From the IMG/VR virus record IMGVR_UViG_2541047874_000005: DNA of 37,745 bases; one strand, written 5' to 3'. The DNA is from a virus (Duplodnaviria > Heunggongvirae > Uroviricota > Caudoviricetes). Every line of letters starts with the position of its first letter. Position 1 is the first letter of the stretch. The position numbers and the translations under genes were made by a program. This document shows positions 378-37,745 of this stretch, one piece after another. The notes below the pieces were generated by a model. That model did not search any database. It saw only the letters and a program-made list of their open reading frames with translations, and had not been told where the DNA came from.

Positions 378-416
378 GCCGCAGTATCCTATCATGACAA
401 GTTACTGCGGCTTTTT
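378..416 (+). terminator. Rho-independent terminator after dinI-like gene
   Basis: GCCGCAGTA (378..386) pairs with TACTGCGGC (403..411), followed by TTTTT (412..416). Confidence 0.5.
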
Positions 417-427
417 ACTTTTTATAT

Positions 428-715
428 TTAACGGATCAACATCCAGATCAGCAGACACGCCACCACCGGCACAGCAAAATCCATCAGGCTTGCTACATCC
501 CACGCGCGAGGATCAAAACCGCCCCACCACGGCATATTCATACGCTTGCCATGCCCGAACATTTCAATCCAGCGATATTCTGCCTGGGTGTGTTCACGCG
601 CAATGAAGAACGTACAACCGGCTATCGCTCCGTAAGCCCAGTTTCCGGTAAAAAGACCAACCAGAAACTGAGTGGCCACCGCACAAAGTGCATGGAACAC
701 CGGTGTTAAGTCCAT
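428..715 (-). CDS. Small integral membrane protein of unknown function, translationally coupled downstream of the tail fibre gene
   Basis: 95 aa with three hydrophobic segments; GGAGGA RBS 7 nt before ATG at 715, 2 nt after the tail fibre stop. No family recognised. Confidence 0.6.
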   Translation of the reverse strand: MDLTPVFHALCAVATQFLVGLFTGNWAYGAIAGCTFFIAREHTQAEYRWIEMFGHGKRMNMPWWGGFDPRAWDVASLMDFAVPVVACLLIWMLIR

Positions 716-717
716 AA

Positions 718-1233
718 TTATTCCTCCAGTAAATCAACACGGCGGGTAAGTGCGCTGATACTCTCTGTCAGCGCATCCACCTGGCTGACAACAGCACGCA
801 GACACCACCAGAGAAGCTCCTCTTTCCGGAAGCGATAACGGCTTCCTGCTTCGGTTGCAGGGCGAACAAGAACCCTTTCCGCCTGTCGGGTAAGCACACG
901 GGTTGTCCCGCTCAACAGCTCCCCTTCATCCGAATAAATCGCTGGCTGAACCGGAATATCTTCATACTCTTCCGGTATATCTTCGTACTGTGCCTCCTCC
1001 GCTTCCCACGAATCCAGACAAAATGCGCTGTATTTCCGCCAGTCCAGACCGTGTTTCTCCATCACGGCTATCGCGGCCTGGACTGTCGGCCCGGCGTGCA
1101 GACGCGCGTCCTCGCCCTCCTCCTCAATTCTCTGTAACCAGCGCCACACGCCCGGAAGCCGTGCTATTTCTGCAAATGCCGCGTTTTCGGCTGCCGTCGC
1201 ATCGCGCGGTGTATCCTTTAACGTCGCATCCGA
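718..1233 (-). other. Putative peptidase-S74-like autoproteolytic chaperone domain of the tail fibre (last ~171 aa)
   Basis: SDATLK begins at residue 781 (Ser codon TCG at 1233..1231 on minus strand); pattern S-D-x-x-L-K then hydrophobic helix and terminal heptad-like [17 protein letters not shown]. Confidence 0.45.
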
Positions 1234-3573
1234 CACAACGGTCGGCGAGTTGCAGAGATACACGCTCCGGAACGCTTTGTTGGGCGCACCCAGGTCGCTG
1301 GTATTGTTAACCGATGGCCGGAATGCACCGTTAATATCTGTATCCATCTGCATGAATGCAGTGCCGTCACTACGGGCTGCAATTACATAAGCGTCAGCAG
1401 AATCGTCATAAATACCCAGATTCCCGACTGTTGATACCTGGAAAGCTCCCGCCTTCAGCGTGGTGCTGATGGTCATGCGCTTCTGGGTTTCGTCATCCGA
1501 TTTAATATTCACGCCCTGCAGGTATGCCACATTCCAGCGATTTGGCGATGACCCCAGATTCATTGCCTTGTCCTGGTCGGGATGAAATGACGGCGAGACC
1601 GGACTCAATAATACAGACCAGGTTTCACTGCCATCGGTGCAATAAAGCCTTGTGCGTCCCGCCGACTGAGTATCGTTCATTGAGTAAAGGTTAATCCCGC
1701 CACCGCTCAACAAATCCACGTCAGCGCGTATTTCCAGACAATCGTGCACGGCGTTCAGTCGGTGTTTCCACTGAACGTAGCGGCCTGTGTATTCTCCGGT
1801 TCGGAACGCATCCCCGAACAAACGAAAAACAGCAGCAGAAGTGTCTGTATCCGGAGCCTCCTTTCTGACCTCAAATAACGGGCGATGCGAGCGCAGATTC
1901 TGCTCATAGGCTGCCACCTGGAAGTCTTCATTGGGTGACAGGGCAATATTTACAGCATTGGGACTCAGAAAAAGGCTGGCATGGCTGTCAGGAAACGCCA
2001 CGCCGGAGTCCACCAGATAGCCTGTGCCGTCGTAAGCCTCCACGGAAACCACAGCTTTGCTGCGTTTTGTCGCCACGCCACACGTATAAGACTTCGTGGC
2101 ATCATATTTCGTTGCAGCCGCCGTTCCATATGCTGTAGGCGTCCAGTAAGATGGATTCACCGGGGAACGGCCAGAAAAATTTGTTGCACGTGCTGCAAAG
2201 TATGCCCCCTCAAAAGAAACCACATCGGCTGTCTGACACCAGAAATCCATATCGAGCAGATACAGTTTTCCGTTATGGAGAGCCAGCCCTTCGGCTTCCT
2301 GCAAAACGGGATACCCCAGCTCTGCATTCCCCAGCATTTTCTGGCGGCCATACCTGGCACGAACGCCATCCACATTGAACTGTCTGACAACTTCGCCCGT
2401 TGACAGGTTATATACAACAATGCGGTGAGTCAGAAATACGCCTGTATAACCGTAATAAGCAAACAGATAATGACCATCGCTGGCCATCCCCTGAAATGCC
2501 TGCGACACCATTGGCTGAGTGGACAGATAAATCCGGTGTTTAAACGTCAGAGAGGCGCGATCGAAAACATAAACTGTGCGGCGATCATCCCTGTTGTAAT
2601 GAAGATGAACTGCTTCATTACTTGACTGAACAATCAACAGGCTTCCGTCTGCCGACAATGCCACCGTTATAATTTCATCCCCGGTAAAAAAGTCAGAGGT
2701 GAAAATCTCCGTACGGGTGACATCTGTCAGACTGGTGTCAGCCCCATTCCAGTTGATGATATTCACACCCTTGCCGTCAGCGGTCGGGGTATACAGCATC
2801 ACGCGACCGTCTTCACATACAGCCCCGATACTCTGGTGACCAATATCAGCGAAAACGGGAGAAAACGAAATGACCGTCGGGTTTTCGTTTTCTCCGTCAG
2901 GGTTAAATGTCGTTTCAACAATCCTTACGCCACCCGATACAGGCTGATGCAGAAACATTCTGGTTCCCTGCGGCGTATCACAGATACAGAACCCCTGGCT
3001 CATATTATCCGCGCCGTCAAAAATACCGGCGTAGTCGATATCATGAATTACTTTATGCTGGAGGGCGTCGTAATCAATGATGTCGCGGCGCAGAGAAATA
3101 TCCGCCGATCCATCAAACTCAACACCGTCAATCCTGACTGGCGTCTTAAGCTTTGATGCGGTAGCTGCGTTACCGTCCAGTTCACCAGCAACACCACCAT
3201 TGAAACTCTGCCTGCCGCTCCACGTATTTTCTGTGCTTAATAGTGGGATCTTTTCACCGCTGCTTCCTGTCTCTCTTAAACCAAGATTTTCGAGAGCAGT
3301 TTTCACTGTGCCATCCAATTTGATGTCGCCAAACGGATTCTTGCGGCTTAACAGCAGCGAACGAAGCGCGGTAAGCAGCTGGTCATGCCGCCCCTTCTCC
3401 AGGCTGGCACCGGATGCTTCCACAACACTGCAAAGCTCTTCCTGCAACATGTCAAAGTAGTCATCATCCAGATCGGTGGCAGGCGTACCGGTCTGGGGGT
3501 TGCCACGGGTAAAACCGTTCTTACCCGCGCCGAACTTATCCTTCTGCGCGGTTTTCGTGTCTATACGATGCAT
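718..3573 (-). CDS. Tail fibre / receptor-binding protein with C-terminal S74-like intramolecular chaperone domain
   Basis: 951 aa; N-terminus [26 protein letters not shown]...[12 protein letters not shown] is the conserved phage tail-fibre N-terminal anchor; sits after the gp48-like gene as in Mu; C-terminus has SDATLK (Ser/Lys dyad spacing), [17 protein letters not shown] and a terminal coiled coil. Confidence 0.85.
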
Positions 3574-6170: not shown

Positions 6171-7249
6171 CAGAACGGGTCCTCCTGTACTCTGGCTTTT
6201 TTCTTTTTCCGCGCGCCGGGGTCTTCGGGTTCAGGCAGATAAGCATCAGGCGGGCCGACACGGATTTCCGTCAGGGTGCCGTTCTGATCCTGAGTAAACG
6301 TGACTTCCGAGACAAGCAGTTCGGTATTGTCAAAACCACAGACCGGATCAAAGACAATCACCCGCTGGTTGGGCTGCCACAGCGTACCGTTACCCTGTCG
6401 CCAGCCCTGCACCACATAGGTGGTTTCATCCGTCCGCGCCGCCCGTTGTCGGGCTTCAAAGTCAGCACGCGCAATACAGCCTGCCCCCGTAGCCTGCCCT
6501 GTCTGCCTGATATACATCGGACGGTAACGGGCAATAAATGCGTCCTCTGTGCGGGCCCGCAGCGCGGTGGTGGTGGCCTCACCGAAATCATCGTCGTTTC
6601 CGGCACGCTGCCCCGCCACCTGGTAAACAGAAAACCGCTCCCGGATACTCTTCTCCGTATCACAGGAAAGGATATTTTCCCCAAGTACCAGCGCGGTATG
6701 TGCCCGCGTTGAGCCAATACCGCCAATCACCAGCCTGCCGTGCGGGTCGTCGTAAGCCAGTGTCTGCTGCTGACCGAGTATTTTGTTGATCACCTCAATC
6801 ACCGTTTCGCCGTGATCAGGCTGGACATCAGGAATAGCACCCGACGGCGCACCATTGTTCACCACCTCAATGCCGAAAGGCGCAGCAAGCGCCTGCGCAA
6901 TCTGTACCAGCGATCGTCCGTTAAACTGTGTCGGTTCAGCTGCACAGTCAATCAGGTCAGCGGTCAGACTACGTCCGGCAATACCGGTGCTGACCGAACG
7001 GGCATCGTAACGAACGGGGGTCGCCTCCACCCAGCCAGTGATCACCAGCTCATCACCAATCAGCACTTCCACTTTTGAACCGTTTTTAATGCGCGGCTGA
7101 AGCGTGGTGATACCCTCATCTCCCGGCCACTGGCGGGTGATCTCCACACTGAAATCCCGCGCCAGCCGTTCAATACCGGCACCGATGCGCACCGATGTCC
7201 AGCCATTCCACTCCCGGCCATTTACCCGTAGCGTGACATTGTCGTTCAT
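6170..7249 (-). CDS. Mu gpP-like (late control D-like) baseplate hub / tail protein
   Basis: 359 aa; follows the DNA-circulation (gpN-like) gene as in Mu; C-terminal lysine-rich tail. Confidence 0.7.
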   Translation of the reverse strand: MNDNVTLRVNGREWNGWTSVRIGAGIERLARDFSVEITRQWPGDEGITTLQPRIKNGSKVEVLIGDELVITGWVEATPVRYDARSVSTGIAGRSLTADLIDCAAEPTQFNGRSLVQIAQALAAPFGIEVVNNGAPSGAIPDVQPDHGETVIEVINKILGQQQTLAYDDPHGRLVIGGIGSTRAHTALVLGENILSCDTEKSIRERFSVYQVAGQRAGNDDDFGEATTTALRARTEDAFIARYRPMYIRQTGQATGAGCIARADFEARQRAARTDETTYVVQGWRQGNGTLWQPNQRVIVFDPVCGFDNTELLVSEVTFTQDQNGTLTEIRVGPPDAYLPEPEDPGARKKKKARVQEDPF

Positions 7250-8574
7250 TGCACTGGCACCTTCAGAGGGATCACCGGCACAAAGCCGGGATGCGTAATG
7301 GCATTACGCCGGATAATGTCCGCGTCACGCGCCGCGTTATCAAACCAGGTCGCCGCCAGCACCAGCGCGGGTAAAACCTCATCCGGCGTGCGCTGAATGA
7401 TCCGTGCAGACTGTTCAAGGCGCGTGTTGATATCCGCATTCAGATCTGCTTTCACCCGGCGCAGCGCCAGAAACAGCGCATCACTGGTTGTACGGGACAA
7501 CTCCTTATCAATTGCCGTATTCAGTGTGTCGCGAATGTCAGTCAGTTCTTCCCACGTTGGCAGATCAACCGTGTTTTTCACCGCCGGTGCATTGTTCAGT
7601 GCCGGATGCGTAACGGAAGGCCAGCCGGTGCTCTGCGCGGGTGTTGTTGACTGCCCCACTGCGGCATTCTGCATCACCGCGGAAGTTGTTGGCGCAGGCA
7701 ATCGGGTTACGGCATACGCCGCTTCGCTGATTGCGGTCGTACGAAGGGTGCTGGCAACCACGTTACGCTGCTGCGTCGCCGTAGCGGTGGTTTTACTGTC
7801 CGTTTTCCAGACGCCGCGCGGTTGCAGATCGCTGCCGAGGCTGACACCGGAAAGCGTTTTGATCATGGTGACCAGGTCGCTGGCGTTACCATAAAGGCGT
7901 TTCCCGGTACGCCACATTTTCTGCACCTGCTCAACGAAATTTTTGCCTGACGATGGCGGCGGCAGAAGTACCGAGATATCCCCCTGCAACAGCCTGGCGG
8001 CATCCGATACGGCAGAATCCACCACTTTCATCGCATCAGAAACATACCCCAGCATTGTGCTGGCATTACCAACGACGTCGTTCTGCACAAAATCCGCCAC
8101 GCTATCGATACTGAAACCGCTGAAGCTGTCACTGATGCAGTCATCCAGTGCAGAACAGGATGACATCAGCGTCTGCGCCGTCGCCGCACCTGATGTGGGG
8201 TAAGAGAGTTCTCCTGCTTCGACAAACTTCAGGTCAAAGCGGACAATACGCCCTTCACTTTTCGATGTGCTGACCCGAACTTCCCCGTCAACACAGACTT
8301 TCAGCTCACCGTATGTCGGATGGACAAGCGTGCCGGGACCGGGTTTATTCAGCGCGTCAATCAGGCGATCACGCTGGTCAAAGCAGTCATCTCCCACCAC
8401 ATAAGCTGTGATGGACGGGCGGAAAGTGACTTTTCCCAGGTCTTCGGTATAGGGCTTGTCGCGGTTCGGGTATTCGTGTGTTTCCACACGGCGACCAGTT
8501 CCCGCACTTTCTTCTTCAACCTTAAACGGTACGCCGCGAAATGACGCATCCTGAAGCCTGTCTTTCCACGTCAT
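7246..8574 (-). CDS. Mu gpN-like DNA circulation protein (tail/baseplate)
   Basis: 442 aa; N-terminus MTWKDRLQDASFRGVPFKVEEE...THEYPNRDKPYTEDLG resembles the Mu N family N-terminal domain; first gene after tape measure in Mu-type tails. Confidence 0.75.
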   Translation of the reverse strand: MTWKDRLQDASFRGVPFKVEEESAGTGRRVETHEYPNRDKPYTEDLGKVTFRPSITAYVVGDDCFDQRDRLIDALNKPGPGTLVHPTYGELKVCVDGEVRVSTSKSEGRIVRFDLKFVEAGELSYPTSGAATAQTLMSSCSALDDCISDSFSGFSIDSVADFVQNDVVGNASTMLGYVSDAMKVVDSAVSDAARLLQGDISVLLPPPSSGKNFVEQVQKMWRTGKRLYGNASDLVTMIKTLSGVSLGSDLQPRGVWKTDSKTTATATQQRNVVASTLRTTAISEAAYAVTRLPAPTTSAVMQNAAVGQSTTPAQSTGWPSVTHPALNNAPAVKNTVDLPTWEELTDIRDTLNTAIDKELSRTTSDALFLALRRVKADLNADINTRLEQSARIIQRTPDEVLPALVLAATWFDNAARDADIIRRNAITHPGFVPVIPLKVPVQ

Positions 8575-8585
8575 ATAAACTCCGG

Positions 8586-8642
8586 ATACAAAAAACCCGC
8601 CAAATCTGCTTTGTCAGTTATTTACATCGCAGAAGATGTGGC
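8586..8642 (-). terminator. Rho-independent terminator after the moron gene
   Basis: On minus strand: CCCGCCAcATCtTCTGC ... GCAGATtTGGCGGG imperfect hairpin followed by TTTTTT. Confidence 0.5.
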
Positions 8643-8664
8643 GGGAATTTAATATTTTTAATTA

Positions 8665-9159
8665 CTATCTGAGTTGAACATCAATGGAATAAATATCACC
8701 ACTCTTTATAAATTTAGAATCTGTCCTTTCATCAAAAGATTCAAATGACTGTACCTTTAAAAACTTTTTCATTTTATTTTCAAAAATACTTTCATTAACA
8801 CCAGTTAAATACTTGAATGCTCTACCAGCAAGGACCTCATTACTTAAATCCATTGTGTTTTTATTGTCTTTGAAAAACCAAACAATAACCTTTTGTGGGC
8901 ATGATGGATTATAAACAGATATATAAAACTGCGGCTCATATTTTTCATCAGCGTCATCACTAAGCATTTCTTCAGAAGATAATTCCCTTCTGAATTCATA
9001 TTGCCGCTTAGTTATTCCTTCATCCTTTATTATCTCTTGCTTAACTGGTGCAATACCTATAGAAGAGATTAATTCTGACTCATTAAAGCTGAACTTACAC
9101 TCTTCCGCAGCCAAGTTAAAAGATAAAAGTGCAGATATAAAAAAAACAAAGATACGCAT
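8665..9159 (-). CDS. AT-rich moron: predicted secreted/periplasmic protein of unknown function
   Basis: About 164 aa from the ATG at 9159 (ORF track extends to 9177); AGGGA RBS; N-terminal signal peptide MRIFVFFISALLSFNLAAEE; markedly AT-rich compared with flanking tail genes; own terminator; TATAAT about 30 nt upstream. Confidence 0.7.
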   Translation of the reverse strand: MRIFVFFISALLSFNLAAEECKFSFNESELISSIGIAPVKQEIIKDEGITKRQYEFRRELSSEEMLSDDADEKYEPQFYISVYNPSCPQKVIVWFFKDNKNTMDLSNEVLAGRAFKYLTGVNESIFENKMKKFLKVQSFESFDERTDSKFIKSGDIYSIDVQLR

Positions 9160-9258
9160 AATCATCCCTTCAATCATTTGTAAGGAATGATTATATTAAC
9201 TACTTAAAGCTGAAAACCCAAATTATGCCAGACAAAAACACATTAATCATTTTGTGCA

Positions 9259-11091
9259 CTACCTGAACCGCGTATAGCCAACATCATGGCTGACATCAAA
9301 ACCGCTGGATCGCGTTTCCATAACTCGCATACCCGGAGGCGAATTCACAAAAGATACCTTGATCTCACCATCAACTTTTGGCACAGAAGCTTTGTTAATC
9401 ATGAAGGGATTCGGGCCTGTGGCATCGGAGGCGTTGTTTGCCTGAGCCGGATCCACCGCCGGATAAGGAGTGTATCCCCGTGGCGGTATTCCCGTCCCAT
9501 AAGCATCATAAGCACCCGCGCCCCACTGCGCCGAGTTAATGGCATCGACCGTGTCACCGGAACTGTCGGTAAACCATTCAATAATCGGCGTCAGCTTATC
9601 CCACATATCCTGAAACCACTTAACAACCGGTCCCCAGTTATTGACCACCATCCCCAGCGGCGACCAGGCAAAAACCTTCTTCAGAAGTTCCCAGCCTGCC
9701 TCAAAATAAGGACCAATGGTTTCCCAGAGCTTCTTGAAATAAGGTCCGACAACATCCCAGTTAGTGATAATTAATCCCGCAGCCAGAGCAATCGCCGTCG
9801 CAATCATGCCAATCGGCGTCATCGACATAATCCTGCTGACAATACTGATGGCACTGCCCACGCCCATCAATCCCAGTTTCAGAATCGCAAGACCGGCAGC
9901 AAGCCCGACGACGCCGCGAATAACCCGGGGATTTTCATCCGCAAAATTCGTGAATTTCTCCCCCAACTCCCCCAGCCATTGTGTGATATTTTTAGCGTCA
10001 CCAGAAAATGCGCCGCCAATAGCCGCAAGGCCGTTAGTTGCGGTCCCTGTCATTGCCTCCCACAGGTTGGACAGCGTACCAAGCTGTGCCTGAACACGCT
10101 TATTCAGGCTGGCCTGTTTATTCATCTTCTGCTGGATCTGATCGTAGCCATCCTTTCCTTTATCGATTAATGCATTGACCACCTGAAGGGTTTCGGCATC
10201 ATCACCAAATATTGCCTTAAGTACACCTGTTCGCTTAACGTCGGTCAGTTTTCGCAGCTTTGCCAGTTGCCTGAACATGTTATCAAGACCGCCAAAACTT
10301 CCTTTGCCGTCAGTAAAATCGAGCTGTACCCCGAGTTTCTGACGGGCCATGACTTTATTGACGTCCCTGATTTTCTTAACGCTTAATCCGGACTGAATAA
10401 CTTTTCGCAGGGCATTACCTGCCGACTCCCCATTCATCCCCATCTGATCCATCATGACGCTGATGGGAGCAAGGCTCTGTGCAGCCTGAAGACCGTCCTT
10501 ATTCACCATCTTCAGAACAGAACTGGTTTTAGTGAAGAAGGACAACATGTTTGTATCGTCAACGCCCAGATAAAACGCCTTCTGGATAGTATCGAACAGC
10601 CCCATCATGTCTTCTGACGCCGTTCCGGTAGCATCCTGCATCTTTGCAGCAAACTCAGCGGCCGCTTCTGGTGTTTTTTTCAGTTGTACCGCAAGATAAG
10701 CTGTCGCTTTACCCACACCGCCCAGAATGTTTTCTGCCGGGATCCCCTGACGCACCAGCATCTGCATCATGTTCTGGAAATCAGCCGTTGTACCGGGTAG
10801 CTGGTTACCCAGGCCAATAGCCAGTTTATTGATGTCCTGAAAGCTCTTTCCAACCTCGCCGTTCGCATCCATCATGGCGACTTTCAGCCCGGTGGCGGCG
10901 TTTTCCTGATCGGCATAAGATTTCAGGGAAAGCGTCAGACCCGCTGCCAGTCCGCCACCAAGCGCCATCCCACCCTGTGACGCTTCTTCCGCCAGGCGTT
11001 TAAATCCCCGGATTTTCTTTTGCATTTTCGACAGCGCGGGAGAAAGCCTGTCGACACCGGTGATCAACGCCTTAAGCTCAAATTCAGCCAT
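9259..11091 (-). CDS. Tail tape measure protein
   Basis: 610 aa; Ala/Gly-rich, hydrophobic internal segment (VVGLAAGLAILKLGLMGVGSAISIV...), Trp-rich C-terminal region; follows tube and chaperone genes. Confidence 0.8.
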   Translation of the reverse strand: MAEFELKALITGVDRLSPALSKMQKKIRGFKRLAEEASQGGMALGGGLAAGLTLSLKSYADQENAATGLKVAMMDANGEVGKSFQDINKLAIGLGNQLPGTTADFQNMMQMLVRQGIPAENILGGVGKATAYLAVQLKKTPEAAAEFAAKMQDATGTASEDMMGLFDTIQKAFYLGVDDTNMLSFFTKTSSVLKMVNKDGLQAAQSLAPISVMMDQMGMNGESAGNALRKVIQSGLSVKKIRDVNKVMARQKLGVQLDFTDGKGSFGGLDNMFRQLAKLRKLTDVKRTGVLKAIFGDDAETLQVVNALIDKGKDGYDQIQQKMNKQASLNKRVQAQLGTLSNLWEAMTGTATNGLAAIGGAFSGDAKNITQWLGELGEKFTNFADENPRVIRGVVGLAAGLAILKLGLMGVGSAISIVSRIMSMTPIGMIATAIALAAGLIITNWDVVGPYFKKLWETIGPYFEAGWELLKKVFAWSPLGMVVNNWGPVVKWFQDMWDKLTPIIEWFTDSSGDTVDAINSAQWGAGAYDAYGTGIPPRGYTPYPAVDPAQANNASDATGPNPFMINKASVPKVDGEIKVSFVNSPPGMRVMETRSSGFDVSHDVGYTRFR

Positions 11092-24328: not shown

Positions 24329-25081
24329 TTATCTTGTCACTTTTCTCAATTGTGTCTCTGCATATGCTTCTTCCTGCCAGCACTTTGTAACCAGTTTATC
24401 AATGACATCTGCATATCCTTTGTACCACTGATAATCCGTCAGATCCGGTACCAGCTTCTGGACATGATGCCGCGCCAGTGTGGTTGGTAAACGGCTAAAC
24501 CGGTTTCCATTGCAACGCCCACAAATCTTATAAACAGGCGCACCATGAAGCCGGGTTCTTTTTTCATCCAGTACAATACCTTTCCCCTTACACCCTCTGC
24601 ACGCTGTGCTGACCTCTCCCTTACCATGACAATGCTGACATAGTTCCTTCACCCACTCTTCCTTGATAACAGATTCCCCGCTTCTGGAGTGTTTCACCAC
24701 TTCGCGCAATACATTATGAAATCCAGTACCAGCACAATGCTCACAGCGAGCCTTACTTGCCGCAGACCTGGAATAATCAGCAAAGGCAAAATTCACAAGG
24801 TAAGGGATGATCTGTAACCGGGTTTCTTCACTCAATTTGTTCAATGTCGGGTTATCCAGTGCCATCGCGTAATTGAGCAGACCTTCAATCGCAAACTGAG
24901 GATCCTGAACACCAACTTTTGCCAGGAATAAGGCAAACCCAAGCGGTGCTTTCGACTGCACCATCCCCTGCGCAGCCATTACATCCGTAATTGTTAAACC
25001 ACCAGAGCCTGTCGCCGGTGCGTCATCGCTCAGTTTTGGAGATTTCGGGGAGTAATATTTCGGTAAGGCTTCAAGGTTCAT
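24329..25081 (-). CDS. Q: Late-gene antitermination protein Q
   Basis: About 250 aa from the ATG at 25081; multiple CxxC/HCH zinc-finger-like motifs; directly upstream of the late promoter/terminator and lysis genes. Confidence 0.75.
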   Translation of the reverse strand: MNLEALPKYYSPKSPKLSDDAPATGSGGLTITDVMAAQGMVQSKAPLGFALFLAKVGVQDPQFAIEGLLNYAMALDNPTLNKLSEETRLQIIPYLVNFAFADYSRSAASKARCEHCAGTGFHNVLREVVKHSRSGESVIKEEWVKELCQHCHGKGEVSTACRGCKGKGIVLDEKRTRLHGAPVYKICGRCNGNRFSRLPTTLARHHVQKLVPDLTDYQWYKGYADVIDKLVTKCWQEEAYAETQLRKVTR

Positions 25082-29592: not shown

Positions 29593-29825
29593 GCTGCACC
29601 TCCGAGATGCTTCATGTTTTTTCCGGAGCGAAAGGCTATAAGCGGCATACTGACGCGGTAATTACGGCCCAGCGGTTCACAAACCACCTTCTGACATTCA
29701 CGGTCAACCAGGCTAACACGTAGAACATGCCCTGCAGGCGTGGTGTACCACTGCCCAACTGTAGGAATTGATGTTTTTTTACGCTGAAGTAAACGGCGAA
29801 TATTGAGGCTCAACAGATTAAGCAT
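29589..29825 (-). CDS. Small hypothetical protein
   Basis: 78 aa ORF with start/stop overlaps to both neighbours; basic. Confidence 0.4.
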   Translation of the reverse strand: MLNLLSLNIRRLLQRKKTSIPTVGQWYTTPAGHVLRVSLVDRECQKVVCEPLGRNYRVSMPLIAFRSGKNMKHLGGAA

Positions 29826-30654
29826 GACGATGCCCTCCGCTGATATTCAGGAGACGGTGAATATGAAAATTAGCCTTATCCGCCAGACGAATACGTTCAG
29901 CCTGCAAGTTAAGAAGGGTTTCTACCAAAACCTGATGCGCCTGCGGATCCGAAAGAGTTACCTTGCGCAGAGCACGTAGTGCAGTTGTTACATAACTGAG
30001 TTTATGTAAGTCTTCATCATTCAGACGAGTGAGGGCTGGGACAGTAGCCATGATGGCAGCCTCCTTGATCGGTGAAATACTTCCACCACCGGAAACGCCA
30101 ATTTCGCTGGTGGTGAACTGAACGGGGTTGGCGTAACCGGTGATCAAGGAAACCGGCGCATCTTTCGATGCCCCCGCCCAGCCCACCATAACTTTGATGT
30201 GAGCAAATGCGGACGATAAAAAAGACGCTGGCGCGTCATATATCGCCTTGATCAATTCCAGGACGCCAATCCCGGCACCCGCTTTATAAGGTGCCTGAAC
30301 AGTGTAACGTCCCGGAATGGCAGAATCAATGTGCTGGTGGTCCTTCACACTCAACAAAATCACGCCTGAATTTCCACAAAGGACTAAAGCACTCATGCGG
30401 GTAGTCTTTGCGAAGATAGATAACGCGCTGTGTTTCTGGCTCCCAACGAATAACATGAACATAAAGTCCTCTTCCGTCACGAAACCAGCGGTTAAGTTCC
30501 TGCACAACTCGCCCCCCACAGTCAGGTAAAGTTCTCTGTGGTTACTTACAGCCAGGTGATTTGGTAATCTGCATTCATGCCGTAACAACAGGTGTTCAGC
30601 GACACTGACCACCAGCTGTTGCGACAAACGGTTATTTGCCGTTAAACTGTTCAT
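29818..30654 (-). CDS. Hypothetical early protein
   Basis: 278 aa; between CII-like and replication genes; no Walker motif; no family recognised. Confidence 0.5.
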   Translation of the reverse strand: MNSLTANNRLSQQLVVSVAEHLLLRHECRLPNHLAVSNHRELYLTVGGELCRNLTAGFVTEEDFMFMLFVGSQKHSALSIFAKTTRMSALVLCGNSGVILLSVKDHQHIDSAIPGRYTVQAPYKAGAGIGVLELIKAIYDAPASFLSSAFAHIKVMVGWAGASKDAPVSLITGYANPVQFTTSEIGVSGGGSISPIKEAAIMATVPALTRLNDEDLHKLSYVTTALRALRKVTLSDPQAHQVLVETLLNLQAERIRLADKANFHIHRLLNISGGHRHA

Positions 30655-36683: not shown

Positions 36684-36709
36684 ACCCGTATATGTACGGG
36701 TTATTTTTC
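36684..36709 (+). terminator. Terminator after the xis-like gene (overlaps the convergent gene's stop)
   Basis: ACCCGTA-tatg-TACGGGT hairpin followed by TATTTTT. Confidence 0.55.
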
Positions 36710-37249
36710 TTTATCACTATCTTTTCTTGATTTGAACAATCCACTAACAACGAAACCAACCAAACCAACAATACTAATTGTACTTGTACCTAGTAATGCA
36801 ACGATCGCTTCAACTGGAGGCTTTCCTTCATGTGCAATAAGAAACGATGTAAACATTGCGACAACGAATAAGCACCAACACGACATAAACCAAACCGTGA
36901 ATGAGGCCATTTTTGTCCGAAGCTCATTGTCTATTTCTTTACCAGTTGCGTCAGCTATCTTATCCCGTACTTGTGATTTGAGCATATCAAGCTGAGCTTG
37001 AAGACTGTCCATTCTGTTCTGCTGCATAAACTCATGCAATGCACCAGTATTAGAACCAAACTCTTCTGCCTCCAGAATAGCTTTATTTTCTGAAGAAGAA
37101 TCATCGTCGCTCTCATGATTAGACGGCTCAAATGCAGATTTAAAAATCTGTTCTTGACTGTCAGTAGAGTTTAAGGATGCTTCAGAGCGACCATTTTCAA
37201 CACCTGCGGCCGCTCCGATAAGTTTATAGATATCTGAATTGTGAGACAT
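36701..37249 (-). CDS. Small membrane protein, candidate toxin/effector partner of the Panacea protein
   Basis: 182 aa; acidic Ser-rich N-terminal region, helical middle, two C-terminal TM helices; AT-rich; 22 nt after the Panacea gene. Confidence 0.6.
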   Translation of the reverse strand: MSHNSDIYKLIGAAAGVENGRSEASLNSTDSQEQIFKSAFEPSNHESDDDSSSENKAILEAEEFGSNTGALHEFMQQNRMDSLQAQLDMLKSQVRDKIADATGKEIDNELRTKMASFTVWFMSCWCLFVVAMFTSFLIAHEGKPPVEAIVALLGTSTISIVGLVGFVVSGLFKSRKDSDKEK

Positions 37250-37271
37250 GTCATCCCTGAATATTACTTTT

Positions 37272-37745
37272 TCAGAGGCCCTGACATTGCTGTCGGTTAT
37301 TCAATAAATCATGATAATAAGCCTTGATCGCATCATTTGAGATGATTGACGAGCCAATACCATTATAAGCTTGTGACCAAGGCGTACCAGGCATATGAGT
37401 TAGAGTTGATAACTCAATTCCATTTTTCGAGCCGTAAAATTTATAAACAGCCCCTATAATGCTCTCTGCTTGTGGATCCATAGTAACAATGCCACCAAAA
37501 GGAGCTACTGCTACATTCGTAACAGGTTTATTCCCATAATCTTTGAAAGCATCGTACATTCCAGGAATAACTGGACCGTACTTCCACGCGGAGACACATT
37601 CATTGAGCAAAGGCTTACCTGTTAATGCTAAATAGTAACCATGTGCAATATAAGTAAGCTTCTGCAGTTGCATGTGGGTCAGAGGATTATGATGTTGGTT
37701 TCCCAACGTTATGAATTTATTGGCTATTTGTACCGGGCTGTACAT
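37272..37745 (-). CDS. Panacea-domain (DUF4065) protein, putative PanA-type antitoxin
   Basis: 157 aa; PLTHMQLQKLTYIAHGYYLALTGKPLL...AWKYGPVIPGMYDAFKDYG matches my recollection of the Panacea hallmark; ATG coincides with the window edge, so the true start and upstream region are unverified. Confidence 0.7.
   Translation of the reverse strand: MYSPVQIANKFITLGNQHHNPLTHMQLQKLTYIAHGYYLALTGKPLLNECVSAWKYGPVIPGMYDAFKDYGNKPVTNVAVAPFGGIVTMDPQAESIIGAVYKFYGSKNGIELSTLTHMPGTPWSQAYNGIGSSIISNDAIKAYYHDLLNNRQQCQGL

What the first reader, a model, noticed from the sequence alone, without database searches (positions are those of the whole stretch)
8586..9258. AT-rich moron with its own terminator inside the tail module, encoding a secreted protein of unknown function
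Between the tape measure gene and the gpN-like baseplate gene lies a self-contained cassette: a perfect TATAAT about 30 nt upstream of the ATG, an AGGGA RBS, a gene of about 164 codons, and an intrinsic terminator. The DNA is visibly much more AT-rich than the flanking tail genes. The product has a classic signal peptide and no similarity to anything I recognise. This position inside a contractile-tail operon is unusual for cargo; a secreted product fits superinfection exclusion, receptor masking or a lysogenic-conversion factor.
Basis: seen in the sequence. Interest (0 to 1): 0.7.

Follow-up and report, generated by a model that had tools for sequence, protein, structure and literature searches.

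The report
Exported-protein moron in phage tail operon
An AT-rich add-on gene for an exported protein of unknown function fills a swappable slot between two tail genes of an SfV-like E. coli prophage, a slot where related phages carry nothing or a different envelope protein, so it is a good but fairly ordinary candidate for a factor that changes the lysogen's envelope, possibly to exclude other phages.

Summary
On the minus strand, between the tape measure gene (9259..11091) and the Mu gpN-like gene (7246..8574), lies a 164-codon gene (8665..9159). It has a perfect TATAAT 30 nt upstream, an AAGGGA ribosome-binding site, a hairpin plus T6 terminator, and the lowest GC content in the window (0.31 against 0.52; z = -4).

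It fits the sequence definition of a moron. SfV, SfI, SfII and about 540 E. coli genomes have the two tail genes adjacent. Only 86 of 5426 genomes carry this gene.

- The position is not unusual. HK97 gene 15, the first moron described, also sits beside the tape measure gene.
- The terminator belongs to the junction, not to the cargo. It is present even when the slot is empty.
- The slot is a hotspot. Three unrelated E. coli alternatives occupy it, all with export or membrane signals, and one matches a family annotated "superinfection exclusion Sie-like".

The protein belongs to a tiny Enterobacterales-only family (PHROG 8976), found only in this slot. It has a cleavable signal peptide, two invariant cysteines and a confident predicted fold with no convincing PDB match.

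A conserved leader hairpin buries the ribosome-binding site in read-through transcripts. Its 5' arm overlaps the -10 element.

The function is untested. Envelope-level phage exclusion is the best guess.

The parts
8665..9159 (-). Cargo CDS, 164 codons plus TAG stop. Precursor of an exported protein of about 146 aa (pI about 4.9). Member of PHROG 8976, function unknown.
   Evidence: 39 columns are invariant across 13 homologues. dN/dS is 0.08-0.18 where computable. AlphaFold2 pLDDT 88, pTM 0.80.
9106..9159 (-). Signal peptide, aa 1-18 (MRIFVFFISALLSFNLAA|EE). Predicted signal peptidase I cleavage after A18. The mature protein begins E-E-C with invariant C21; the second invariant Cys is C87.
   Evidence: Hydropathy and the -1/-3 pattern across alignment A1. 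Low pLDDT for residues 1-20. Judged by rule; no signal-peptide predictor was available.
9165..9170 (-). Shine-Dalgarno sequence AAGGGA, 5 nt before the ATG at 9159.
   Evidence: A G-rich block at the same place in all 12 family leaders.
9190..9195 (-). -10 hexamer TATAAT of the putative cassette promoter. No good -35.
   Evidence: In the alignment of 12 diverged leaders, two of the six invariant columns are the last A and T of this hexamer; the other four lie in the ribosome-binding site or around the start codon. 10 of 12 leaders read TAnnAT. The consensus scan found no complete promoter.
9158..9194 (-). Leader hairpin: 13-bp stem (arms 9194..9182 and 9170..9158) with an 11-nt loop. It pairs the ribosome-binding site and the AU of the start codon with the sequence just after, and overlapping, the -10 element.
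   Evidence: -16.5 kcal/mol. The ribosome-binding site to AUG has unpaired probability 0.04 in a long transcript, against 0.49 in a transcript starting 24 nt upstream of the ATG; 0 of 200 shuffles are as low. Across the family, 84% of cells are paired against 37-52% in slid controls.
8590..8645 (-). Intrinsic terminator: outer stem CCCGCCA/TGGCGGG, inner stem, then T6. It ends 4 nt before the gpN ribosome-binding site (CCGGAG, 8585..8580).
   Evidence: A hairpin plus T-run occupies the same place in empty and otherwise-occupied versions of the junction.
8586..9258 (.). The variable segment of the junction. Homology with empty-site relatives stops at the tape measure stop codon (9259..9261) on one side and at the terminator and gpN ribosome-binding site on the other.
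9259..11091 (-). Tape measure protein gene (upstream neighbour).
   Evidence: PF10145, PHROG 28.
7246..8574 (-). Mu gp43 (N)-like DNA circularisation / baseplate hub gene (downstream neighbour).
   Evidence: PF07157, PHROG 184.
24329..25081 (-). Q-type antiterminator. It is the inferred means by which late transcription passes the junction terminator.
   Evidence: PF03589, E = 1e-53. Q, terminase, head and tail genes are all on the minus strand.

Best explanation
The segment is a moron cassette sitting in a recombination hotspot of SfV-like temperate phages. These phages have lambdoid regulation, an HK97-type head and a Mu-type contractile tail.

SHOWN
- The tape measure | gpN junction is a slot that is either empty or filled with one of several unrelated, AT-rich, single-gene cargoes.
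- This cargo encodes a conserved protein under purifying selection, with a Sec-type signal peptide.
- The junction always ends in an intrinsic terminator.
- The phage encodes a Q antiterminator.

INFERRED
- In the lysogen the gene is transcribed from its own weak sigma-70 promoter (the -10 at 9195..9190), and the junction terminator stops that transcript before gpN.
- In lytic growth, Q-modified polymerase reads through. On those long transcripts the leader hairpin sequesters the ribosome-binding site and start codon. The protein would then be made mainly from the short, promoter-proximal transcript, which lacks the 5' arm of the hairpin.
- The 146-aa mature protein is released into the periplasm and probably stabilised by a C21-C87 disulfide.
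- It acts there on the envelope. The most likely role is to block entry of superinfecting phages after adsorption (superinfection exclusion), as HK97 gp15 does from its own slot beside the tape measure gene.

The moron, hotspot and exported-protein parts are near-certain (about 0.9). The promoter and hairpin logic is moderately supported (about 0.5). The exclusion function is a contextual guess (about 0.35).
For: Extra DNA relative to close relatives
- SfV, SfI and SfII span 1480 bp where the window has 2101 bp.
- In 5426 complete E. coli genomes, about 1094 carry the flanks, about 542 have the empty junction, and 86 have this gene.

Hotspot
- A 176-aa protein (PHROG 5485) occupies the slot in 178 genomes.
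- A 225-aa lipoprotein with an LLGGC lipobox (PHROG 1353) does so in 55.
- A membrane-anchored OB-fold protein (PF12869; PHROG 8545 'superinfection exclusion Sie-like', E = 1.5e-49) does so in 72.
- All four E. coli occupants start with a hydrophobic export or anchor segment.

Composition
- GC is 0.31 here and 0.33-0.40 in five homologous cassettes, against 0.47-0.58 in their flanks.

A real gene
- 39 columns are invariant, dN/dS is 0.08-0.18, and AlphaFold2 gives pLDDT 88.

Fixed position
- All contexts examined place the family between the tape measure gene and gpN.

Promoter and hairpin
-.

Terminator and Q
-.

Precedent
- HK97 gp15 is a moron beside the tape measure gene, is expressed from the prophage, and blocks genome entry (PMC3594210).
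Against: - No expression data exist.
- The promoter has no recognisable -35, and the consensus scan scored nothing.
- AT-rich DNA produces -10-like hexamers easily, and H-NS may silence it.
- Occlusion of the ribosome-binding site is significant in only about half of the family leaders; L011, L016 and L022 have p of about 0.4-0.6. The tested hairpin was derived from the window sequence itself.
- In Pantoea phage AH07 the gene starts 16 nt after the tape measure stop codon, so any promoter there lies inside the tape measure gene.
- The 'Sie-like' label of the neighbouring allele is a database annotation, not a tested function.
- The Edwardsiella phage EPP-1 occupant of the same slot has no export signal.
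Confidence: 0.45

Rival explanations
1. It is a moron, but its periplasmic product serves host fitness rather than phage exclusion. Examples would be a colonisation or virulence factor in the manner of lambda Bor or Lom, or a periplasmic immunity or inhibitor protein against colicins, tailocins, type VI effectors or lysozymes.
For: - The same structural facts apply: exported, moron architecture, hotspot.
- Many carriers are poultry isolates, and phage SKA5 came from an avian pathogenic E. coli strain.
- Deep allelic lineages (55-66% identity) occur in otherwise similar phages, as expected of specificity-type proteins.
Against: - Carriers also include human, pig, cattle, dog and environmental isolates.
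- No toxin partner is encoded in the cassette.
Confidence: 0.3
2. The gene functions in the lytic cycle. It would be translated from the late operon transcript and exported to mask receptors, or otherwise stop progeny from re-adsorbing to debris (as T5 Llp does), or to assist lysis or release.
For: - It is co-oriented with the late operon and embedded in it.
- In AH07 it follows the tape measure gene by only 16 nt.
- The family has stayed in this one slot of the tail module across genera.
Against: - The leader hairpin predicts poor translation on read-through transcripts.
- Most E. coli relatives, and the viable phages SfV, SfI and SfII, do without any occupant.
Confidence: 0.12
3. It is a tail assembly or virion accessory protein specific to this sub-lineage.
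For: It lies in the tail module between two tail proteins. Its divergence block includes the last ~70 residues of the tape measure protein and the first ~80 residues of gpN.
Against: - A cleavable signal peptide sends it out of the cytoplasm, where tails assemble.
- It is absent from SfV, SfI, SfII and most relatives whose flanking tail genes are 95-97% identical at the DNA level.
- Its composition is foreign.
Confidence: 0.04
4. The ORF is non-functional filler or a decaying remnant.
For: The family is very small: 16 clusters among 5.8 billion proteins and 12 representatives among 1.84 billion. No function is known.
Against: - 39 invariant columns and dN/dS of about 0.1.
- A confident predicted fold.
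- An intact reading frame in 84 of 86 E. coli copies and across four genera.
Confidence: 0.02

Closest known systems
HK97 gene 15 moron (Juhala et al. 2000; Cumby et al. 2012; reviewed in PMC3594210)
   Same: A single small gene inserted in the tail operon next to the tape measure gene. It has foreign composition and its own promoter and terminator signals. Its product is targeted to the envelope. HK97 gp15 is expressed from the prophage and blocks genome entry.
   Different: - No sequence relationship.
- HK97 gp15 is a small inner-membrane protein located upstream of the tape measure gene in a siphovirus. This product is a predicted soluble periplasmic protein located downstream of the tape measure gene in a contractile-tailed phage.
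- Function here is untested.
Defence and accessory hotspots of temperate phages and satellites (Rousset et al. 2022 for P2 and P4, cited in PMC10884400; from my own knowledge of that paper)
   Same: A fixed inter-gene position, flanked by conserved genes, holds alternative unrelated cargoes or nothing. Exchange happens by recombination in the flanks.
   Different: - A different phage lineage and position (tape measure | gpN in SfV-like phages).
- The cargoes are single small envelope proteins rather than multi-gene cytoplasmic defence systems.
- None matches PADLOC models.
Envelope-acting exclusion proteins of prophages (Cor of phi80, N15 and HK022; T5 Llp; T4 Sp; P1 Sim; Ltp of TP-J34)
   Same: Small exported or lipid-anchored proteins, encoded by phages and often near tail or receptor-binding genes, that act outside the cytoplasm.
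   Different: No homology or fold match to any of them. This protein is not a lipoprotein, as it has no lipobox. The resemblance is by location and topology only.
T4 e (lysozyme), soc and I-TevI translational gating by promoter position (from my own knowledge, not checked here)
   Same: A hairpin occludes the ribosome-binding site in long upstream transcripts. A promoter inside or overlapping the hairpin yields a shorter, translatable mRNA.
   Different: In T4 the translatable mRNA is the late one. Here it would be the lysogenic, cassette-promoter transcript. This is predicted from folding and comparative counts only.
PHROG 8976
   Same: The protein is a full-length member (E = 3e-107, profile positions 1-164 of 164).
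   Different: The family has no assigned function, so membership explains nothing.

Membership tests
Moron (sensu Juhala et al. 2000; PMC3594210) | Extra DNA between two genes that are adjacent in related phages | tested here: met
   SfV, SfI and SfII and about 542 E. coli genomes have the tape measure gene and gpN about 60 nt apart.
Moron (sensu Juhala et al. 2000; PMC3594210) | Nucleotide composition different from the surrounding genes | tested here: met
   GC is 0.314 against 0.51-0.58 in the flanks. z = -3.97, the lowest segment in the window.
Moron (sensu Juhala et al. 2000; PMC3594210) | Own promoter | tested here: inconclusive
   There is a perfect -10, and the hexamer position is conserved across 12 leaders. 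There is no -35, and the consensus scan found nothing.
Moron (sensu Juhala et al. 2000; PMC3594210) | Own terminator | tested here: met
   A hairpin plus T6 is present. An equivalent terminator also exists in the empty junction, so it belongs to the site rather than the cargo.
Moron (sensu Juhala et al. 2000; PMC3594210) | Expressed from the repressed prophage | not testable with these tools
   Needs RNA-seq or 5'-RACE of lysogens.
Superinfection exclusion proteins | Homology to a characterised exclusion or defence family | tested here: not met
   PADLOC, Pfam and NCBIfam gave no hits. PHROG 8976 is 'unknown function'. There is no fold match.
Superinfection exclusion proteins | Envelope location | tested here: met
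   A conserved Sec-type signal peptide, predicted by rule and supported by alignment and by low pLDDT at the N-terminus. In silico only.
Superinfection exclusion proteins | Reduces infection by other phages when expressed | not testable with these tools
   Needs plating, adsorption and DNA-entry assays.
Phage accessory-gene hotspot | Same flanking genes, alternative unrelated cargoes and an empty state | tested here: met
   Four unrelated occupants plus the empty state in E. coli, and a fifth occupant in Edwardsiella phage EPP-1.
Virion structural or tail assembly protein | Conserved in all phages that share the tail module | tested here: not met
   Absent from most relatives whose flanks are 95-97% identical.

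The most novel reading that the evidence does not exclude
The tape measure | gpN junction of SfV-like phages is a dedicated slot, insulated by its own terminator, for envelope-targeted exclusion factors. PHROG 8976 would then be a new periplasmic exclusion family with a fold not seen in the PDB. Its deep allelic types travel together with the C-terminal ~70 residues of the tape measure protein and the N-terminus of gpN, which would suggest specificity tuned against, or sparing, the phage's own injection machinery. Its synthesis would be restricted to the lysogen by a switch in which the promoter lies inside the leader hairpin.
Probability: 0.2. Interest if true: 0.65.

Novelty: new member of a known kind. 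Interest (0 to 1): 0.42.

Why it matters
If the product excludes phages, it would add a periplasmic, non-lipoprotein exclusion family aimed at contractile-tailed phages, a step of infection for which few inhibitors are known. It would also flag a hotspot present in about 20% of complete E. coli genomes, where at least four small envelope proteins of unknown function could be screened together.

The conserved junction terminator and the leader hairpin give a concrete, testable picture of how a cargo gene can sit inside an essential late operon without disturbing it.

If the function turns out to be unrelated to phages, this remains an ordinary uncharacterised moron.

Tried and rejected
- Pfam, NCBIfam and PADLOC scans of the protein gave nothing.
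- A profile search of PDB sequences gave only noise, best E = 0.004 over 48 residues.
- Foldseek against the PDB gave a best E of 0.05.
- Foldseek against viral models gave one hit: a 180-aa metagenomic 'ABC transporter periplasmic binding protein', TM 0.63, 13% identity. It is probably a distant relative with an automatic name, and is uninformative.
- The AlphaFold database library was not available.
- An exhaustive profile search of 1.84 billion representatives found only 12 relatives, so there are no remote characterised homologues.
- Rfam found nothing in the segment.
- The repeat search found no flanking direct repeats or terminal inverted repeats, so I rejected a transposon-type insertion.
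- The consensus promoter scan found no two-hexamer promoter.
- dN/dS is mostly uninformative because dS is saturated.
- I first read the L008/L018 comparison as a clean swap of the cargo alone. A finer profile showed that the divergent block also covers the end of the tape measure gene and the start of gpN.
- Literature searches for phage SKA5, and for a link between tRNA_anti-like proteins and exclusion, found nothing.

Full report
**1. What is there**

All the genes concerned are on the minus strand. The window encodes a 610-aa tape measure protein (9259..11091, PF10145), then an ORF at 8665..9177, then a Mu gp43/N-like protein (7246..8574, PF07157) and the Mu-type baseplate genes gpP, gp45, gp46 and gp47.

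PHROG 8976, a 164-position profile of unknown function, aligns to residues 7-170 of the ORF. Every full-length homologue starts at the equivalent Met-Arg.

- TATAAT lies at 9195..9190, exactly 30 nt before the ATG.
- AAGGGA lies 5 nt before the ATG.
- A terminator lies at 8590..8645: outer stem CCCGCCA/TGGCGGG, an inner stem, then T6. The 91-nt stretch containing it folds at -24.4 kcal/mol, z = -3.2.
- GC of 8575-9258 is 0.314 against a window mean of 0.519 (z = -3.97). This is the lowest 684-nt segment of the whole window; the next lowest elsewhere is 0.383.

The one weak element is the promoter. There is no acceptable -35, and the consensus scan returned no site in 8300-9500.

**2. Which phage this is**

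The tail module is 97-98% identical to Escherichia phage SKA5 and 95-96% identical to Shigella phages SfV, SfI and SfII. These are temperate phages with lambdoid regulation, an HK97-type head and a Mu-type contractile tail.

The window carries a Q-type antiterminator (24329..25081, PF03589, E = 1e-53). Q, terminase, head and tail genes all lie on the same strand, which is the arrangement of a single late operon.

**3. It is extra DNA in a hotspot**

SfV, SfI and SfII cover the same flanks in 1480 bp instead of 2101 bp, so they lack the segment.

Among 5426 complete E. coli genomes:

| State of the junction | Genomes |
|---|---|
| Flanks present | about 1094 |
| Empty junction (two tail genes about 60 nt apart) | about 542 |
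| This gene | 86 (84 with at least 80% of the gene), all chromosomal |
| 176-aa protein, PHROG 5485 | 178 |
| 225-aa lipoprotein with LLGGC lipobox, PHROG 1353 | 55 |
| 148-aa N-terminally anchored OB-fold protein on the opposite strand | 72 |

The OB-fold protein matches PF12869 and PHROG 8545, 'superinfection exclusion Sie-like' (E = 1.5e-49).

All four E. coli occupants are AT-rich (GC 0.31-0.42) and begin with a hydrophobic export or anchor segment. Edwardsiella phage EPP-1 has a fifth occupant, 125 aa, without such a segment.

No direct or terminal inverted repeats flank the segment. Homology with empty-site relatives stops at the tape measure stop codon on one side and at the terminator and gpN ribosome-binding site on the other. 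Exchange therefore looks like homologous recombination in the flanks, not transposition.

**4. The terminator belongs to the junction**

In the empty junction, and in the other co-oriented occupied states, a GC-rich hairpin followed by T6-7 lies directly before the conserved gpN ribosome-binding site CCGGAG. This holds in the Kosakonia, Atlantibacter, Pantoea and Edwardsiella relatives as well.

The SfII GenBank record annotates a 'putative rho-independent terminator' at that spot. The hairpin sequences differ between variants, but the 3' arm GGCGGG plus T-run is shared by this cassette, its homologues and the lipoprotein cassette.

The slot is thus insulated from gpN whatever it holds. Late transcription presumably passes the terminator through Q antitermination; this is inferred from established knowledge of lambdoid Q proteins.

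**5. The protein**

The family is very small. There are 16 clusters among 5.8 billion proteins and 12 representatives among 1.84 billion. Those that carry a source name come from Enterobacterales.

Thirteen homologues share 39 invariant columns, many of them polar: EPQFY, DNxNT, AGRAFKYLTG, FENK and FES. Two cysteines (C21, C87) are invariant.

The first 18 residues vary in sequence but keep a signal-peptide pattern: a basic residue at position 2 in 12 of the 13 sequences, a hydrophobic core, and small residues at -3 and -1 before A18|E19. AlphaFold2 gives pLDDT 88 and pTM 0.80, with the only disordered part at residues 1-20.

This is a real, constrained, exported protein of unknown biochemical function. 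It has no lipobox, so I predict it is soluble in the periplasm, probably with one disulfide. That last part is inference.

**6. Evolutionary behaviour**

Every context I could examine places the family in the same slot, with GC 0.33-0.40 against 0.47-0.58 in the flanks. These contexts are Kosakonia, Atlantibacter, three metagenomic contigs, Pantoea phage AH07, E. coli O157:H16 and several short contigs.

It is therefore an old resident of this phage lineage rather than a recent arrival, and it has stayed AT-rich.

The cargo diverges faster than its neighbours. Its identity to the window copy is 59-62%, where the tape measure protein, gpN and gpP are 70-84% identical.

Two phages that are 97-100% identical over the first 520 tape measure residues differ sharply in one block. 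That block comprises the last ~70 tape measure residues (58-68% identity), the cargo (about 60%) and the first ~80 gpN residues (68-78%). Distinct cargo alleles thus move as a block together with the adjoining ends of the two tail proteins.

**7. A conserved leader element**

The repeat search found a 13-nt inverted repeat with arms at 9194..9182 and 9170..9158. As RNA it forms a 13-bp stem (-16.5 kcal/mol). The stem pairs the ribosome-binding site and the start codon with the sequence that begins inside the -10 hexamer.

In a transcript that includes the upstream region, the ribosome-binding site to AUG stretch is unpaired with probability 0.04. None of 200 dinucleotide shuffles of the upstream part is as low. 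In a transcript starting about 24 nt before the ATG, where the TATAAT would place the start, the probability is 0.49.

Twelve diverged leaders were aligned, at 53% mean identity. Only six columns are invariant: the last A and T of the -10 hexamer, one G of the ribosome-binding site, and three bases in or next to the start codon. Ten of the twelve leaders read TAnnAT.

The hairpin columns form standard pairs in 84% of cells, against 37-52% when one arm is slid by 1-3 columns. Only 2 of 500 shuffles reach this, and four pairs change on both sides.

There are caveats. The structure was taken from the window sequence. Occlusion is individually significant in only about half of the leaders. An inverted repeat overlapping a promoter could instead be a protein-binding site.

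My reading is that the protein is translated from the short cassette transcript and not from late read-through RNA. This is the same device that, to my knowledge, T4 uses for e, soc and I-TevI, but with the opposite timing.

**8. Most likely function and rivals**

The architecture is that of the classical moron, and the position is the classical one. The first moron described, HK97 gene 15, lies in the tail operon next to the tape measure gene, is expressed from the prophage, and blocks genome entry (PMC3594210).

Three things favour envelope-level superinfection exclusion: that precedent, the export signal, and the fact that every E. coli occupant of the slot is an envelope protein, one of them in a family annotated as Sie-like. 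I put that reading at roughly one in three.

A host-fitness or immunity role for a periplasmic protein is nearly as likely.

A lytic-cycle role is possible, for example masking receptors on debris. It fits the leader hairpin poorly.

A structural role is very unlikely, given the signal peptide and the gene's absence from viable close relatives.

**9. Verdict**

Three points need correcting: the position is not unusual, the terminator is a property of the junction, and the gene is a long-standing, lineage-specific occupant of a multi-allelic hotspot.

This is a new, uncharacterised member of a known kind. It is worth a modest experimental follow-up, ideally together with the other occupants of the slot.

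Noticed in passing
window 30106-30193 (-) and 30218-30294 (-): Rfam matches above the gathering score to C4 antisense RNA (RF01695, 82 bits) and the IsrK Hfq-binding sRNA (RF01394, 64 bits). They are adjacent to each other, overlap the 5' part of an Ash-family ORF (29818..30654, PF10554), and lie near the immunity region. This suggests a P1/P7-type antisense immunity module in a lambdoid SfV-like phage.
   Followed up: no
window 36701-37745 (-): The AT-rich end of the window (GC 0.38-0.41) carries an ORF with a SocA/Panacea antitoxin domain (37272..37745, PF13274, E = 6e-18). It is followed by a 182-aa ORF with no Pfam hit (36701..37249). This may be a Panacea toxin-antitoxin pair, and so a second accessory or defence cargo.
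   Followed up: partly
L016 6980-8778 (Atlantibacter prophage): In this relative, two extra genes (506 aa and 93 aa, no Pfam hits) are inserted between gpN and gpP. These two genes overlap in the window and in the other relatives. This is a second variable slot in the same tail module.
   Followed up: no
L008 5700-6800 vs L018 4700-5800: Two phages with near-identical tape measure proteins (97-100% over residues 1-520) have a sharply divergent block. It covers the last ~70 tape measure residues, the cargo gene and the first ~80 gpN residues. The cargo allele is therefore linked to the adjoining ends of the two tail proteins.
   Followed up: partly
window 718-3573 (-): A 951-aa tail fibre with a C-terminal intramolecular chaperone domain (Peptidase_S74, PF13884). 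This fibre region (385-3271) has no match to phage SKA5, although the rest of the tail module is 97.6% identical. That indicates a host-range module swap.
   Followed up: no
window 9222-9230 (-): A second promoter-like element, TGGCATAAT (an extended -10 type: TGn plus CATAAT), lies 35 nt upstream of the TATAAT, inside the tape measure-cargo spacer. A transcript starting here would include the whole leader hairpin.
   Followed up: no
E. coli genome search: 13 of the matches to the tape measure-gpN junction are on plasmid records, for example the 55.6-kb NZ_CP142787. This suggests that some SfV-like tail modules reside on phage-plasmids or in plasmid-borne prophages.
   Followed up: no
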